Shown: in pieces, positions 1,655 to 31,520 of the stretch
How positions within the stretch are numbered: the stretch's first letter is position 1
Layout: each line of letters opens with the position of its first letter
Source: a virus
Taxonomy: Duplodnaviria > Caudoviricetes
Length of the DNA stretch: 53,367 nt
Virus record (IMG/VR): IMGVR_UViG_3300034158_000030
Coordinates: 1-53,367 of that record
Reading direction: 5' to 3' (one strand)
Notes under the pieces: generated by a model
What the model was told of the DNA's origin: nothing
Seen by the model: the letters and a program-made list of their open reading frames with translations, nothing else
The model's database searches: none
Made by a program: the position numbers and the translations under genes

Positions 1655-1896
1655 TTTGCCGATTCTGCTACCGAGTGCTCGCGAATCTCAGCGTGGAGCT
1701 CAGCCCACTCCGCAACCTTGATGCCGCCACCAGCATATGCGCCCGTAGCAGTGCTGTAGGCGGTCGCATAGCAGCGCTCAGGCGTAGGGCCAGGATTCTC
1801 TCCAGCGGCGCCGGTGAAGTGCTTTGCGGCGTCTTTCAAGTGGTCCCGGACCATCTTCTGTACCAGTTGAAAGCCTGCAACTTGTTTTTGGGTCAT
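1651..1896 (-). CDS. Hypothetical protein
   Basis: ORF MTQKQVAGFQ... with a GGAG SD upstream of ATG 1896. Confidence 0.6.
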   Translation of the reverse strand: MTQKQVAGFQLVQKMVRDHLKDAAKHFTGAAGENPGPTPERCYATAYSTATGAYAGGGIKVAEWAELHAEIREHSVAESAK

Positions 1897-28699: not shown

Positions 28700-29202
28700 G
28701 CGCCCAGGACGAAAGCCGCCTGGAGTCGCTACAGCGCTCAGTCGACCGCGCCTACATGCAGCGCAACACCCTGGCGGTCGCTGCCGTCAAAATGGCCTTA
28801 CTGCTGGGCTGGCCTGCGGGCCAGGGCCTGGACGATAACGAGGATGGTGAACACGAGTGGCGACACGTTGTTTACATTCAGTTGCCGGACGGCTCGCAAG
28901 TGTCGTACCACATCGCGCCTGGCGACCTAGGCCTACTGGACGGAATCCCGTGGTTCTCGGGCGAGTGGGATGGCTCCTACCTCGGAACAACTAAGGAATG
29001 GATCGCGTCCATCCCCGAGCTCTACACGTCGCTTGTGCCTGCCGGGATGACCCTGGAGGGGTGGGCAGAGGATCAGCTCGAAGGGTTCGCCCTCAAGCGC
29101 TGGCGAGTCGAGCTGCGCAAGGTTGACGCCGACGACAGTATCAGTCCTGAGACCAAGGATCGTATCCTTTGCGGGTACATCAAGGCATGGGCGGCGGGCT
29201 AG
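28696..29202 (+). CDS. WDGH-domain-like protein
   Basis: Y.QRN.L...VYIQLPDGSQVSYH...EWDG. Confidence 0.5.
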   Translation: MSAQDESRLESLQRSVDRAYMQRNTLAVAAVKMALLLGWPAGQGLDDNEDGEHEWRHVVYIQLPDGSQVSYHIAPGDLGLLDGIPWFSGEWDGSYLGTTKEWIASIPELYTSLVPAGMTLEGWAEDQLEGFALKRWRVELRKVDADDSISPETKDRILCGYIKAWAAG

Positions 29203-29203
29203 T

Positions 29204-29231
29204 TTGACACCGTGGAAAAGGTCTGTATTAT
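29204..29231 (+). promoter_or_regulatory. Sigma70 promoter of the tRNA/ncRNA operon
   Basis: TTGACA-N16-TATTAT. Confidence 0.75.
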
Positions 29232-29232
29232 T

Positions 29233-29390
29233 CACCTGGCAACGGGCGAAAACGAAACAGACTCATTGTCTACCGGCCTTTACGCTAATCGCAGGCTAAA
29301 GCGATGAAAAATAATTTGGCTGACCTGGCGGACGAACAGTGACCGCCTGATGACCCTAAAGGGTCTGCGAATGAAAGCCCCTTGCCAGTG
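29233..29390 (+). ncRNA. Putative structured leader RNA (about 160 nt)
   Basis: Closing helix ctggcaa/ttgccag plus gggc/gccc; internal hairpins ggcgg/ccgcc and gaccc-taaa-gggtc. Confidence 0.5.
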
Positions 29391-29428
29391 AAGCGGGGCG
29401 CGACTGGGAGTCGGTCGCCTGGCATCAA

Positions 29429-29505
29429 GCCCTATTAGCTCAGTTGGATAGAGCAATCCCTTGTCGCGGGATAGGTCAGCGGTTCGAACCCGCTATAGGG
29501 CGCCA
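29429..29505 (+). tRNA. tRNA-Asp(GTC)
   Basis: Cloverleaf gccctat/atagggc, anticodon loop TTGTCGC, TTCGAAC T-loop, G73, encoded CCA. Confidence 0.85.
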
Positions 29506-29528
29506 ATCAAGTAGCTTGACAGTTTCGA

Positions 29529-29643
29529 CCGTGCGGGCCGGTAGGATCGGCACTTATGATGAACGGTCGCCTTAGACGGAGTAATTACCCTGAGAGGCGT
29601 CAACTAGCTTAAGTGAAAGAGAGTTCAATACTCTTCGCACGGA
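29529..29643 (+). ncRNA. tRNA-like RNA 1 with a 53-nt insert replacing the anticodon loop
   Basis: Acceptor ccgtgcg/cgcacgg, D-like arm gccg/cggc, stem actta/taagt, T arm gagag-TTCAATA-ctctt; no CCA. Confidence 0.55.
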
Positions 29644-29644
29644 G

Positions 29645-29752
29645 CACCGAAGAAGGCCGAAAGGCAGAACTAAAACGAGGCGACTCAGCGCGCCTACCTC
29701 AAGTACGACCGACCTGGCGCGCAGGGTAATCAGGCTTAAGGGAACTTCGGTG
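29645..29752 (+). ncRNA. Putative pseudoknotted RNA
   Basis: Closing helix caccgaag/cttcggtg, gcc-GAAA-ggc hairpin, gagg/cctc crossed by gcgcgcc/ggcgcgc. Confidence 0.5.
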
Positions 29753-29762
29753 GCACAGTTTC

Positions 29763-29833
29763 GCGGGTATGCACAGGGTGTTAGTCAGCCTTCCAAGCTG
29801 ACGACAAGGGTTCGATTCCCTTTATCCGCTCCA
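29763..29833 (+). tRNA. tRNA-Gly(TCC), short D arm
   Basis: gcgggta/tatccgc, loop CTTCCAA, TTCGATT T-loop, U73, CCA; 71 nt. Confidence 0.85.
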
Positions 29834-29837
29834 GTGT

Positions 29838-29940
29838 TTGACGTGGCTACCCCGACCTAGTGAGCGGGCAATTGCGGAAGGAAGTACGCGCAGGTCTACA
29901 AGTGGCGCGCAACTCTTGCGGGTGAGGCTCCCGCCGTCAA
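29838..29940 (+). ncRNA. tRNA-like RNA 2 with an expanded anticodon arm
   Basis: ttgacg/cgtcaa, cccg/cggg and ttgcg/cgcaa stems; T-like arm gcggg-TGAGGCT-cccgc. Confidence 0.5.
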
Positions 29941-29949
29941 CTGATTCAC

Positions 29950-30036
29950 GGACGATTGGCAGAGAGGTTTAACGCAACCGCTTGCTAAGCGGCAGCCCGA
30001 AAGGGTTCCCAGGTTCGAATCCTGGATCGTCCGCCA
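29950..30036 (+). tRNA. tRNA-Ser(GCT)
   Basis: ggacgat/atcgtcc, loop TTGCTAA, long variable arm, G73, CCA. Confidence 0.93.
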
Positions 30037-30041
30037 AACGC

Positions 30042-30117
30042 ACGCGCATAGCTCAGCGGATAGAGCAACCGCCTTCTAAGCGGTCGGCCACTGGTTCAAA
30101 TCCAGTTGTGCGTACCA
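30042..30117 (+). tRNA. tRNA-Arg(TCT)
   Basis: acgcgca/tgtgcgt, loop CTTCTAA, A20, CCA. Confidence 0.93.
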
Positions 30118-30182
30118 ACAACCGGCCGACATGCACTAGCGGCCCCGGACGTCGTAACCGGGCTATTCTCTCCAGTGGTACT

Positions 30183-30244
30183 AAACCCGCCTTAAAAAAG
30201 CGGGTTTTTTTATGGGCAAAGAAAAGCCCCGGTTAAGGGGCTTC
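30183..30244. terminator. Back-to-back terminators (tRNA operon on +, fibre gene on -)
   Basis: aaacccgc...gcgggttttttt and aaaagcccc...ggggctt. Confidence 0.8.
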
Positions 30245-30248
30245 GGCT

Positions 30249-31520
30249 CTAGCTCATTTCTCTCCATGCCAGGATGGTAGAGGCTGTCGTTCCGCCCTCG
30301 CCGCCAATCATGTACTGGTATCCAGGCGGAACGAAAAGCGTGATGGTCACCCGGCGCGGAGTGGTTCCGGTCTGCGCATCGCTGGCGAACTCAAGCCCGT
30401 TTGTGTCGCTGGCATCCTTTCGGATGACGCCACGGAAAAACCTCGAACTTGAGGTGTTTTCAGTCGAGCGCAAAAACACAATCATTTCATTGCCTGAGTT
30501 GTTTGATTTCCACACTCCAGGAACTTGCTGGTTCGTAGGTAGATCGCGCCAGATACGGATGGATCGCGGTAGGTGGGCGGGGAGGTTTACAATGGGCACT
30601 CTAGCTCCGGTATCGAGCGGAGCGACGCCGCTGGCGGCACCCTTTGCGGTCGACGGAATAAGCCCGCTCGTGTCAACTGGCGGCGGCAGGTTGGCTGCCG
30701 GGACCTTCTTGTCTTGCCCTAGCGGGGCGACCCCGCCCGCCTTGTCTCGATCCCCTTTTGGCATATAGGTATCGGCGGCGTGCTGCTTACTCTCAAACGG
30801 CAGGTCGTCGCCGGACAGTGCCAGGCTGATAGCCGAGGATATCTCGGCAGGCCCCGGCTTTGCATCCCACTCGGAAATCTGCGAGCTTGTAACGAACCGC
30901 TTTTCGGGAGTCTCGGAAATCATCGCAGCAATGTAGTCGCCCGACTGCGGCGCAATGTTCCCGGTTCTGCCGTTGAATGAGGCTACCCCGATAGCCATGG
31001 TGTTTCCGAGTGGGGACCAGCTCGCATCAATTGCTGGGTCCTGATTCGCGTCCAGGCCCCAAGCGTCGCCGGTATCACTCTCATAGGCAATAGTGAGGTC
31101 GCCGTACACGGACAGCGCCAGGCGCGCAGCCTTGTTCGCCACGTTGACCTTGCGGCCTACCGGGAACTCAGGCAACTGGCTGTATGGCACGCGCCCCGAG
31201 GATAGGTCGGCCTTCTGCGACAGCCCGAGCGACAGAGCGGAAAGCTCGCCCATTGCAGCGTCTGCCGCCATTCTCGCCTCTGACGCCTTTAGCGAGGCCT
31301 GCGCCGCCTTAATCTCGGCCTCTGAGACGCGGTAGATAATCTCCTCTGGCAGTTCCCCGCTCTGACCGCCGTCAATCCCCTTTACAACGGCCTGGACCTT
31401 TCTGCCTGACATTTCCATGGGGCTGCCGTAGAGAGTCATGCCCTCGACGTTGACAGCATGCAAAACCATGAGCTCCAGCGACTTGTTGGTGTCCGCCTGG
31501 AGTAGCCTGTATTCAGCCAT
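30249..31520 (-). CDS. Fibre-like virion protein with a DUF1737-like N-terminus
   Basis: MAEYRLL...EGMTLYGSP...QAVVK; VASFNGRTG; two GVAPL..VP..NLP repeats; adhesin-like C-terminus (VPPGYQY...WREMS). Confidence 0.65.
   Translation of the reverse strand: MAEYRLLQADTNKSLELMVLHAVNVEGMTLYGSPMEMSGRKVQAVVKGIDGGQSGELPEEIIYRVSEAEIKAAQASLKASEARMAADAAMGELSALSLGLSQKADLSSGRVPYSQLPEFPVGRKVNVANKAARLALSVYGDLTIAYESDTGDAWGLDANQDPAIDASWSPLGNTMAIGVASFNGRTGNIAPQSGDYIAAMISETPEKRFVTSSQISEWDAKPGPAEISSAISLALSGDDLPFESKQHAADTYMPKGDRDKAGGVAPLGQDKKVPAANLPPPVDTSGLIPSTAKGAASGVAPLDTGARVPIVNLPAHLPRSIRIWRDLPTNQQVPGVWKSNNSGNEMIVFLRSTENTSSSRFFRGVIRKDASDTNGLEFASDAQTGTTPRRVTITLFVPPGYQYMIGGEGGTTASTILAWREMS

What the first reader, a model, noticed from the sequence alone, without database searches (positions are those of the whole stretch)
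29204..30210. A 1 kb non-coding operon alternating real tRNAs with tRNA mimics and other structured RNAs (candidate decoy system)
Seen: one sigma70 promoter and one terminator enclose, in order, a leader RNA, tRNA-Asp, tRNA-like RNA 1, a pseudoknotted RNA, tRNA-Gly, tRNA-like RNA 2, tRNA-Ser, tRNA-Arg and two hairpins. The 110-260 nt spacers have no credible ORF and each element is closed by an end-to-end helix. Known: RNase P and 3' trimming of flanking tRNAs release intervening RNAs (as for the T4 species I/II RNAs), and phage tRNAs can counter host anticodon nucleases such as PrrC, RloC, PARIS AriB and VapC. Inference: the tRNAs act as processing punctuation for a set of stable RNAs that may decoy tRNA-targeting defences or bind translation factors.
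Basis: partly seen in the sequence, partly recalled or inferred. Interest (0 to 1): 0.78.

Follow-up and report, generated by a model that had tools for sequence, protein, structure and literature searches.

The report
Phage tRNA operon carrying an uncatalogued RNA
A phage tRNA operon also encodes a tRNA-like domain fused to a 113-base four-helix RNA that recurs, with strongly co-varying helices, in dozens of unrelated phages and matches no catalogued RNA family; the other supposed "tRNA mimic" in the operon is not supported.

Summary
Partly confirmed. The locus is a real non-coding operon. It has a conserved sigma70-like promoter (29204-29231), four good tRNAs (Asp, Gly, Ser, Arg) and an intrinsic terminator (30183-30211).

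One spacer holds something remarkable. The Asp-Gly spacer encodes a CCA-less tRNA-like domain (29529-29643). One base later comes a 113-nt RNA of five helices around a four-way junction (29644-29756). A covariance model of this module finds 41 distinct copies in phage and metagenome contigs:
- 96.3% of cells are paired, and 24 of 30 pairs change on both sides.
- The covariation score is 0.69 against 0.17 in shuffles.
- It usually sits inside same-strand tRNA arrays.
- In 33 of the 41 copies it directly follows a tRNA-like domain.

No Rfam 15 family matches it, and no model match in the T4 tRNA region holding rnaC/rnaD.

The Gly-Ser spacer ("tRNA-like RNA 2") is absent from both close relatives, has no homologue, and folds worse than shuffled sequence. 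No pseudoknot signal was found. The leader and tail hairpins are conserved only in two close relatives.

Best reading: a stable RNA co-transcribed with tRNAs and probably excised by tRNA-processing enzymes, whose invariant junction binds an unknown partner. The anticodon-nuclease decoy idea has no specific support. Function is unknown and there are no expression data.

The parts
29204..29231 (+). sigma70-like promoter, TTGACA-16 nt-TATTAT
   Evidence: It matches 11 of 12 consensus positions and is the only site in 28800-30600; shuffles give a mean of 0.6. Both hexamers are identical in L013 and in phage Torfinnsbu. Promoter activity was not tested.
29238..29428 (+). leader RNA (5' end inferred from the -10 position)
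   Evidence: MFE is -73.5 kcal/mol with z = -3.23; 0 of 200 shuffles fold as well (computed on 29232-29428). The first ~55-70 nt are conserved in L013 and Torfinnsbu, including one hairpin changed on both sides (AGAC/GTCT versus GCTA/TAGC); the rest diverges. Only 3 sequences are available, so there is no statistical covariation test.
29429..29505 (+). tRNA-Asp (GTC), CCA encoded
   Evidence: ARAGORN. Rfam tRNA model scores 63.7 bits.
29529..29643 (+). tRNA-like domain: acceptor CCGTGCG/CGCACGG, D arm, long ~60-nt arm in place of the anticodon arm, T arm GAGAG-TTCAATA-CTCTT, discriminator A, no CCA
   Evidence: The MFE fold gives acceptor, D and T arms with z = -2.95. RNAalifold on 6 relatives shows 6 of 7 acceptor pairs kept through changes on both sides. 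Neither ARAGORN nor the Rfam tRNA model at E<=10 calls it.
29644..29756 (+). 113-nt conserved RNA module: P1 closes a four-way junction with hairpins P2 and P3 and the P4 arm, which carries an 8x8 internal loop and P5. Invariant segments are TAAAACGA-GGCG...CGCC-TA and GGTAATCAG.
   Evidence: Model R1 scores 117.4 bits, the only hit in the window. On 29 sequences aligned without the model, 94% of cells are paired, 23 of 31 pairs change on both sides and the covariation score is 0.621 versus 0.170 in shuffles (0 of 500), with slid controls at 0.04-0.13. RNAalifold gives the same helices independently. On 41 distinct sequences, 96.3% of cells are paired and 24 of 30 pairs change on both sides. 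No Rfam match.
29763..29833 (+). tRNA-Gly (TCC), short D arm, CCA encoded
   Evidence: ARAGORN. Rfam tRNA model scores 45.6 bits.
   Evidence: It is absent from L013 and Torfinnsbu, where Gly and Ser lie 3-5 nt apart. It has no blastn match, and an exact 21-mer from it is absent from viral contigs. Folding z = +2.15. No tRNA-model hit.
29950..30036 (+). tRNA-Ser (GCT), long variable arm, CCA encoded
   Evidence: ARAGORN. Rfam tRNA model scores 48.7 bits.
30042..30117 (+). tRNA-Arg (TCT), CCA encoded
   Evidence: ARAGORN. Rfam tRNA model scores 69.6 bits. Torfinnsbu lacks it, and L013 has a different element in its place.
30118..30182 (+). 3' trailer with hairpins and a conserved CT-rich stretch
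   Evidence: The fold is (z = -1.20, not exceptional). The sequence from ~30141 onward is conserved in L013 (98% over 50 nt) and in Torfinnsbu. Weak sub-threshold Rfam hits to terminator-type sRNAs only.
30183..30211 (+). intrinsic terminator of the operon
   Evidence: An 8-bp stem, a 9-nt loop and then 7 T. Conserved in Torfinnsbu. The scan tool missed it because its loop limit is 8.
30214..30241 (-). probable terminator of the convergent minus-strand gene (30249-31520)
   Evidence: A GCCCC/GGGGC hairpin followed on the minus strand by a T-rich run. The gene is a tail-like protein by PHROGs. Conserved in Torfinnsbu.

Best explanation
The region is the tRNA operon of a complete ~53-kb phage genome. 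It has one sigma70-type promoter, four decoding tRNAs and one terminator. Besides the tRNAs it carries one genuine extra RNA gene: a ~230-nt bipartite RNA at 29529-29756. This RNA is a CCA-less tRNA-like domain joined through a single discriminator base to a 113-nt module of five helices around a four-way junction. The module belongs to a phage-restricted RNA family that is absent from Rfam.

Proposed mechanism (inferred). The RNA is made as part of the tRNA precursor. RNase P cuts at the 5' end of the tRNA-like domain and at the 5' end of the downstream tRNA-Gly, and 3' trimming stops at helix P1. This releases a stable RNA whose two ends are locked in helices. The tRNA-like domain serves mainly as a built-in processing and stability handle. 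The invariant junction nucleotides and the never-varying GGCG/CGCC helix of the module form the functional site, which binds a conserved partner (a host protein, an RNA or a small molecule) in trans.

The leader and 3' trailer are lineage-specific flanks of the operon. The Gly-Ser spacer is a recent insertion without a supported RNA.

Shown: the anatomy, the conservation, the covariation, and the association with tRNA arrays and with a tRNA-like domain.
Inferred: transcription, processing, stability, action in trans, and the partner.

The confidence of 0.55 is for the whole statement. That the module is a real, conserved structured RNA of a family not in Rfam I put at about 0.9. The handle-plus-trans-acting mechanism I put at about 0.4.
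For: - tRNAs, promoter and terminator. The promoter and the start of the leader are conserved in two relatives.
- Module structure: five helices supported on an alignment made without the model (94% of cells paired; 23 of 31 pairs changed on both sides; covariation 0.621 versus 0.170; 0 of 500 shuffles reach it; slid controls at most 0.13). RNAalifold supports them independently, as do 41 distinct sequences.
- G-U pairs occur in one strand orientation only, for example 24 G-U at the P1 closing pair. This points to RNA read from the + strand.
- Distribution: Pseudomonas jumbo phages D6 and Psa21, Vibrio and Erwinia phages and phage TPWB-08. Also 26 of 50 pattern hits in IMG/VR and 19 metagenome contigs.
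- Context: most copies lie in same-strand tRNA arrays.
- Handle: 33 of 41 distinct copies are preceded by a T arm plus acceptor stem ending 0-3 nt upstream, mostly 1 nt. ARAGORN of these upstream domains odd tRNAs, with varying or unassignable anticodons.
- The module is the conserved part. The long arm of the tRNA-like domain differs between clades.
- The module also stands alone in Vibrio phage 1.106.O, with a terminator 19 nt downstream and no tRNA nearby.
- No neighbouring protein family is shared by more than 5 of 32 loci. This points to a host or self-contained partner.
- The module was not found in 151 sampled genomes of one Pseudomonas-containing genus.
Against: - No expression, end-mapping or stability data exist for any member.
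- If only a processing handle were needed, the neighbouring true tRNAs could serve. Two variants (L027, L044) do follow a true tRNA with CCA. The constant 1-nt junction and the missing CCA in most copies could instead mean that the two halves work as one fused RNA.
- P1 begins 2-3 nt after the discriminator. That may hinder cleavage by 3' tRNA-processing enzymes, so separation of the halves is uncertain.
- The partner is unknown.
- The P3 loop is variable and P2 carries generic stable tetraloops, so no recognisable binding motif was identified.
- The genus scan scored only 24 candidates per genome with strict filters. 'Phage-restricted' therefore means 'not found in those searched'.
Confidence: 0.55

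Rival explanations
1. One fused bipartite effector, in the manner of tmRNA or Y-RNA-like RNAs. The tRNA-like domain is a targeting part that docks the RNA on a tRNA-handling machine (ribosome, elongation factor, CCA-adding enzyme, synthetase or RNase P). The module, placed where the CCA end would be, is the active or blocking part.
For: The junction is constant: 1 nt between the acceptor 3' strand and P1 in most of the 33 copies. CCA is absent even though all four true tRNAs of the operon encode it. The acceptor, D and T arms keep a canonical shape while the anticodon arm is free to vary.
Against: The module occurs without any tRNA-like domain in at least 3 of 41 copies (L004, L015, L291). No acceptor identity element common to the clades was seen in the sequences. 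There is no biochemical evidence.
Confidence: 0.25
2. Decoy or inhibitor of tRNA-targeting defence nucleases. The tRNA-like domain soaks up or blocks anticodon nucleases or other tRNA-directed toxins.
For: A tRNA-shaped domain in an accessory phage locus. Distribution among related phages is patchy, as for counter-defence genes: present in the window, L013 and TPWB-08, absent from Torfinnsbu.
Against: The anticodon arm is the least conserved part. It is replaced by long, clade-specific arms that do not mimic any one anticodon loop. The conserved part is the non-tRNA module. The module also exists without the tRNA-like domain. The second supposed mimic is unsupported.
Confidence: 0.12
3. Self-cleaving ribozyme, or another cis-acting processing or anti-termination element, that acts on the polycistronic transcript itself.
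For: The compact multi-helix core has about 55 invariant positions. It sits exactly at a junction between two RNAs. Core-sharing variants in lambdoid prophages lie in the late leader between the Q antiterminator gene and the holin gene. In the window, holin and terminase genes follow within 1.5 kb.
Against: No Rfam ribozyme or cis-regulatory family matches. In the window the operon ends at its own terminator and the next gene is convergent, so nothing lies downstream to anti-terminate. tRNA-processing enzymes already explain excision.
Confidence: 0.1
4. Decayed tRNA genes or chance structure without function.
For: This is plausible for the 29834-29949 spacer only. It has a 5-bp hairpin with a 7-nt loop next to a 6-bp closing helix, and it is an insertion relative to both relatives.
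Against: For the module and the tRNA-like domain this is excluded by conservation across unrelated phages and by compensatory changes.
Confidence: 0.03

Closest known systems
Phage T4 RNAC and RNAD (species 1 and 2 RNAs)
   Same: They are small stable RNAs encoded inside a phage tRNA cluster, on the tRNA strand and directly beside tRNA-Arg. T4 rnaC ends in a T-arm-like hairpin (sequence). Their roles are still unknown (passages read in PMC3014915 and PMC9697503).
   Different: Model R1 finds nothing at E<=1 in the 8-kb T4 region that holds both. No T4-like phage appears among the 14 blastn records for the spacer. There is no evidence of common descent; the likeness is one of organisation only.
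tmRNA
   Same: A tRNA-like domain without a decoding anticodon is joined to a second functional domain, and some phages carry it (the phage point is recalled).
   Different: ARAGORN finds no tmRNA in the window, and no Rfam tmRNA family matches the window. Here the tRNA-like domain is contiguous rather than formed by the two ends of the RNA. It lacks CCA, and there is no tag reading frame.
Y RNA-like RNAs (YrlA, RF02553)
   Same: A modular non-coding RNA with a tRNA-like domain, reported in bacteria and phages (recalled).
   Different: The Rfam YrlA model does not hit 29506-29762. Its only match in the window spans tRNA-Ser/Arg at 20.6 bits against a cut-off of 69. The order of parts differs: here the second module is appended 3' of the tRNA-like domain.
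GOLLD and ROOL large RNAs
   Same: Structured RNAs of unknown function found in phages, often next to tRNA genes (recalled).
   Different: No Rfam match. The module is 113 nt, whereas those RNAs are several hundred nt (recalled).
tRNA-punctuated release of non-tRNA RNAs (MALAT1-mascRNA; E. coli 3'ETS-leuZ)
   Same: RNase P acting on a tRNA or tRNA-like fold defines the end of a neighbouring functional RNA, and tRNA-operon spacers or trailers can be functional RNAs (recalled). This is the model proposed here for the module, and possibly for the 3' trailer.
   Different: Those cases are host RNAs with no sequence or structural relation to this one. Processing was not tested here.

Membership tests
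tRNA (RF00005): the four annotated genes | Cloverleaf scoring above the curated cut-off, a 7-nt anticodon loop and a 3' CCA | tested here: met
   Scores are 69.6, 63.7, 48.7 and 45.6 bits against a cut-off of 29. ARAGORN assigns the anticodons. CCA is encoded in all four.
tRNA: the domain at 29529-29643 | Acceptor stem, D arm and T arm | tested here: met
   Seen in the MFE fold and in the consensus of 6 relatives, with 6 of 7 acceptor pairs changed on both sides.
tRNA: the domain at 29529-29643 | 5-bp anticodon stem with 7-nt loop, 3' CCA, and detection by tRNA models | tested here: not met
   A ~60-nt branched arm replaces the anticodon arm. The sequence after the discriminator is GCACC, not CCA. 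ARAGORN makes no call, and there is no RF00005 hit at E<=10.
tmRNA | tRNA-like domain formed by the 5' and 3' ends, a tag reading frame and a CCA end | tested here: not met
   ARAGORN finds none. No tmRNA-clan match in the window.
YrlA / Y RNA-like (RF02553) | Match to the family model over the element | tested here: not met
   The only match, 20.6 bits against a cut-off of 69, lies over tRNA-Ser/Arg and not over the spacer.
T4 rnaC / rnaD | Sequence and structure homology | tested here: not met
   R1 has no match at E<=1 in T4 66000-74000. No blastn match to T4-like phages.
T4 rnaC / rnaD | A non-tRNA stable RNA gene inside a phage tRNA cluster, on the same strand | tested here: met
   establish the position only. 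Stability was not tested.
Known ribozymes, riboswitches and sRNAs of Rfam 15 | Any family match near its curated cut-off over 29232-29428, 29506-29762, 29834-29949 or 30118-30213 | tested here: not met
   The best non-tRNA hits are 15-27 bits against cut-offs of 41-90. Homologous loci gave tRNAs plus two far-sub-threshold hits lying outside the module, and 17 variant loci gave tRNAs only.
The new module family (model R1) | Five helices (P1-P5) with compensatory changes, the invariant junctions TAAAACGA/TA/GGTAATCAG and an invariant GGCG/CGCC stem | tested here: met
   The window scores 117.4 bits over the full model length.
Intrinsic terminator | GC-rich hairpin followed by a U run at the end of the unit | tested here: met
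   30183-30211: an 8-bp stem and then 7 T. Termination itself is not testable here.
   No crossing column pair stands out in the mutual-information scan. The candidate strands are invariant, so covariation cannot decide.

The most novel reading that the evidence does not exclude
The 113-nt module is a new class of functional phage RNA. It would be either a catalytic RNA or a high-affinity aptamer-like RNA that captures a conserved host factor or a small signalling molecule. Diverse phages of Gammaproteobacteria would express it at tRNA-like levels by embedding it in tRNA arrays and giving it a tRNA-like handle. The shared core (TAAAACGA-GGCG...CGCC-TA) defines a wider superfamily that reaches into lambdoid prophages of E. 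coli, where it sits in the late-gene leader.
Probability: 0.3. Interest if true: 0.85.

Novelty: new variant of a known kind. Interest (0 to 1): 0.7.

Why it matters
Phage tRNA clusters have been known for fifty years to carry extra stable RNAs (T4 RNAC and RNAD) whose roles remain unknown. This work defines a second, much more widespread and far better supported example. It is a compact RNA with about 55 invariant positions and 24 co-varying pairs. It is shared by jumbo phages, ~50-kb phages of Pseudomonas, Erwinia and Vibrio, and uncultured phages from soil, peat and sea.

Cultured carriers exist (phages D6, Psa21 and Vibrio phage 1.106.O), so the question of what non-tRNA RNAs in phage tRNA arrays do becomes directly testable. 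The degree of conservation is typical of ribozymes, riboswitch aptamers or RNAs that bind core cellular machines. The tRNA-like handle suggests a natural tRNA-scaffold strategy for making stable RNAs.

Tried and rejected
- Rfam at gathering and at E<=10 on the window gave nothing but tRNAs. Rfam at E<=0.1 on 5 homologous loci gave tRNAs plus two far-sub-threshold hits, YrlA 32.1 bits and alpha_tmRNA 18.5 bits, both outside the module. Rfam at gathering on 17 variant loci gave nothing but tRNAs.
- tmRNA, permuted tmRNA, Y RNA-like and known ribozyme readings were rejected for lack of any model match.
- Sequencing runs: no RNA holder is listed. The only full holder is a DNA run that may be the source sample. 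Read laying was therefore not used, so nothing can be said about expression.
None of them has the P3 signature, so the scan is uninformative about prophages.
- R1 found nothing in 3 bacterial genomes reached through those loci or in 151 sampled genomes of one genus. Few candidates were scored, so this counts only as 'not found in those searched'.
- Exact-word scans for more relatives of the leader found L013 only. Scans for the 29834-29949 spacer found none. The leader and trailer therefore cannot be tested for covariation.
- The search for a linked protein gene gave no family shared by more than 5 of 32 loci, all within one jumbo-phage clade.
- Literature:
  - Searches for the motif strings returned only unrelated primer matches.
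  - Searches on phage tRNA-like or structured RNAs returned no title or abstract describing this RNA (listings).
  - One search was used only to find the T4 RNAC/RNAD papers.
  - PMC10690425 (10,006 candidate structured RNAs in viruses; passages read) may contain this motif in supplementary tables that I could not open.
- A small ORF in the leader (31 aa, GTG at 29212; a 30-aa CDS is annotated at the matching place in Torfinnsbu) was rejected. It starts between the -35 and -10 hexamers, and the conserved hairpin changes on both sides.
- A by-eye resemblance of one junction to an rRNA loop was dropped, because the shared letters are not conserved across the family.
Full report
WHAT THE WINDOW IS

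The window is a whole virus record of 53,367 bases, rated 100% complete by CheckV. Its closest cultured relative in the operon region is Pseudomonas phage Torfinnsbu. The region under study lies at the end of a + strand block of genes for unknown and HTH-type proteins. A convergent tail-like gene follows, and then holin and large-terminase genes.

THE OBSERVATION

Four tRNA genes are present exactly as described: Asp-GTC, Gly-TCC, Ser-GCT and Arg-TCT (ARAGORN; 45.6-69.6 bits on the Rfam tRNA model). All four encode their CCA.

One promoter-like site (TTGACA, 16 nt, TATTAT) lies at 29204-29231. It is the only one in 1.8 kb, where shuffles give a mean of 0.6. Both hexamers are unchanged in the two relatives that share the operon: IMG/VR contig L013 and Torfinnsbu. 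A hairpin followed by seven T at 30183-30211 ends the unit.

The spacers hold only short GTG/TTG ORFs that overlap tRNAs or the promoter. So the operon, its tRNAs and its non-coding nature are confirmed.

THE ASP-GLY SPACER IS THE REAL FINDING

blastn of 29506-29762 against phage records gave 14 records.
- Phage TPWB-08 matched over 98% of the length at 76.6% identity. There the homologue lies between tRNA-Asp and tRNA-Gln.
- The 3' half matched unannotated DNA of Pseudomonas jumbo phages D6 and Psa21, three Vibrio phages and several Erwinia phages.

Reading these side by side showed two parts.

Part 1 is a tRNA-like domain at 29529-29643. It has:
- a 7-bp acceptor stem, a D arm and a T arm with a TTCAATA loop;
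- a long branched arm where the anticodon arm should be;
- a discriminator A and no CCA.

Its fold is better than 198 of 200 shuffles (z = -2.95). Among six relatives, 6 of 7 acceptor pairs are kept through changes on both sides. ARAGORN and the tRNA model do not call it in the window.

Part 2 begins one base later and is a 113-nt module at 29644-29756. Helix P1 (9 pairs with a bulged G) closes a four-way junction. The junction carries hairpin P2 (capped by stable tetraloops), hairpin P3 (an invariant GGCG/CGCC stem with a variable loop) and arm P4. P4 continues through an 8x8 internal loop into hairpin P5.

The junction strands are invariant: AAG, AGAAC-TAAAACGA, TA, ACG..CGA, GGTAATCAG and G.AC.

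HOW WELL THE MODULE IS SUPPORTED

A gapped 18-base pattern scan of IMG/VR returned 50 loci. By inspection, 26 are true copies and 24 are chance matches inside coding-looking sequence.

On a MAFFT alignment of 29 sequences made without any structural model, my five-helix structure gives:
- 94.0% of cells paired, against 70.0% in shuffles;
- 23 of 31 pairs changed on both sides;
- a covariation score of 0.621 against 0.170, with 0 of 500 shuffles as high;
- scores of 0.04-0.13 when the 3' partners are slid by 1-3 columns.

RNAalifold predicts the same five helices on its own.

I built covariance model R1 from 26 sequences. A more specific 27-base pattern found 19 metagenome contigs. R1 then found 51 matches in 50 sources, of which 41 are distinct. 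On these, 96.3% of cells are paired, 24 of 30 pairs change on both sides, and covariation is 0.690 against 0.173. That alignment is fitted to the model, so the model-free result is the fairer test.

A mutual-information scan ranks the helix pairs first and shows no crossing pair. It also cannot be excluded, because the unpaired strands never vary.

CONTEXT OF THE FAMILY

Most copies lie inside same-strand tRNA arrays.

A script checked each of the 41 distinct copies for a T arm (at least 4 of 5 pairs) followed by a 7-nt strand that pairs (at least 6 of 7) with an upstream 7-mer. It found one ending 0-3 nt, mostly 1 nt, before the module in 33 of 41. The 8 exceptions are:
- three that show at least a T-arm-like hairpin by eye (L050, L305, L295);
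- two divergent copies that follow a normal tRNA with CCA (L027, L044);
- three without any tRNA-like domain (L004, L015, L291).

ARAGORN labels 7 of the upstream domains as odd tRNAs, with unrelated or unassignable anticodons. The long arm differs between clades.

In Vibrio phage 1.106.O the module stands in a 900-bp gap without tRNAs. A terminator lies 19 nt downstream, and a weak promoter-like site lies about 120 nt upstream; that promoter match is no better than chance.

One jumbo-phage contig has two copies. No protein family is shared by the neighbourhoods of more than 5 of 32 loci.

R1 found nothing in the 8-kb T4 tRNA region or in Torfinnsbu. It found nothing in 3 bacterial genomes or in 151 sampled genomes of one genus (few candidates scored).

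A WIDER SUPERFAMILY

In 100 of the 109 new loci, R1 gave 50 matches at E<=0.01. Only two exceeded 100 bits; the rest scored 20-43 bits and have other architectures downstream of P3.

One such variant is in E. coli phages Huey and IME10. It covers at least 80% of the query in 119 of 5,426 complete E. coli genomes, always unannotated. There it lies between the Q antiterminator gene and the holin gene.

Rfam at gathering thresholds finds only tRNAs in 17 variant loci. I did not analyse these variants further, and their homology to the module rests on the shared core only.

THE OTHER ELEMENTS

The Gly-Ser spacer (29834-29949, "tRNA-like RNA 2") is absent from both relatives, where Gly and Ser lie 3-5 nt apart. 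In addition:
- it has no blastn match in phage records, in the other loci fetched by then or elsewhere in the window;
- an exact 21-mer from it is absent from IMG/VR;
- the tRNA model does not hit it;
- it folds worse than all 200 shuffles (z = +2.15).

It does have a 6-bp closing helix next to a 5-bp hairpin with a 7-nt loop. It may be a decayed tRNA or a small insertion.

The leader (to 29428) folds well (z = -3.23, 0 of 200 shuffles). Its first 55-70 nt are conserved in the two relatives, with one hairpin changed on both sides. Three sequences do not allow a test.

The 3' trailer is conserved in the same two relatives, but its fold is unexceptional (z = -1.20). Whether either is more than an operon flank is open.

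HOW IT MOST LIKELY WORKS

Shown: a conserved, co-varying RNA lies on the tRNA strand. It begins 23 nt after tRNA-Asp and ends 6 nt before tRNA-Gly. Its 5' part is tRNA-shaped and both of its ends are locked in helices.

Inferred:
- It is transcribed with the tRNAs from the 29204 promoter.
- RNase P cuts at the 5' end of the tRNA-like domain and of tRNA-Gly.
- Exonucleases trim back to P1.
- The product is a stable RNA whose invariant junction is the working surface.

Because the module is the conserved part and can occur alone, I take the tRNA-like domain to be mainly a processing and stability handle. The constant 1-nt junction and the missing CCA keep open the rival that both halves act as one tRNA-mimicking effector.

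A ribozyme or cis-acting role cannot be excluded, but nothing speaks for it beyond the degree of conservation and the late-leader position of the lambdoid variants.

COMPARISON WITH WHAT IS KNOWN

The closest precedent is organisational: T4 RNAC and RNAD. These are stable RNAs beside tRNA-Arg in the T4 tRNA cluster, with roles still unknown (passages in PMC3014915 and PMC9697503). There is no homology. tmRNA, Y RNA-like RNAs and GOLLD/ROOL share single features only, and all fail the model tests.

The family is not in Rfam 15. My literature searches found no description. It may be listed among the 10,006 unnamed candidates of PMC10690425, whose supplements I could not open.

VERDICT

The locus yields a well-supported, widespread and uncatalogued phage RNA of unknown function.

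Noticed in passing
L286:2559-2633 (E. coli ATCC 11775 prophage); L187:4498-4572: A 75-nt variant shares the core TAAAACGA-GGCG...CGCC-TA. It sits between the Q antiterminator gene and the holin gene of lambdoid prophages. It is found at 80% coverage or more in 119 of 5,426 complete E. coli genomes and in phages Huey and IME10, and it is never annotated.
   Followed up: partly
Some are followed by a T-arm-like hairpin, some by a GCCGG-AGATCAGCA-CCGGC hairpin and an intrinsic terminator. This may be a superfamily of phage RNAs.
   Followed up: partly
L013:~1690-1870 (minus strand): In the closest IMG/VR relative, the place of tRNA-Arg is taken by a ~200-nt element that ends in a T arm, a 7-nt strand and CCA. 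It looks like another tRNA-like RNA with a large insertion, and ARAGORN does not call it.
   Followed up: no
L014:2656-2770 and L014:3247-3361: A 310-kb jumbo-phage contig carries two copies of the module about 480 nt apart (127.2 and 101.2 bits).
   Followed up: no
window 30141-30182: The 3' trailer after tRNA-Arg is nearly identical in L013 and Torfinnsbu. It contains an unpaired CT-rich stretch (TTCTCTCC) just upstream of the terminator. It could be a trailer-derived small RNA in the manner of the E. coli 3'ETS-leuZ (recalled), or it may simply be part of the terminator region.
   Followed up: partly
window 29763-29833; L013 (aligned region): tRNA-Gly(TCC) has a shortened D arm (71 nt; 45.6 bits). 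ARAGORN does not call its homologue in L013 even though it aligns well.
   Followed up: no
L012, L018, L042, L045, L288, L296 (downstream of the module): In one clade the 20-25 nt after the module are also conserved (…ATGTCTTCTCTC…). In the jumbo-phage clade another downstream stretch (AGA[AT]TTC…) recurs. Further conserved elements may follow the module.
   Followed up: no
window, whole: At gathering thresholds, with Rfam's fast filters, tRNA-Asp was missed on the whole window (3 tRNAs). It scored 63.7 bits when the region was searched alone. This is a filter effect, not a property of the gene.
   Followed up: yes
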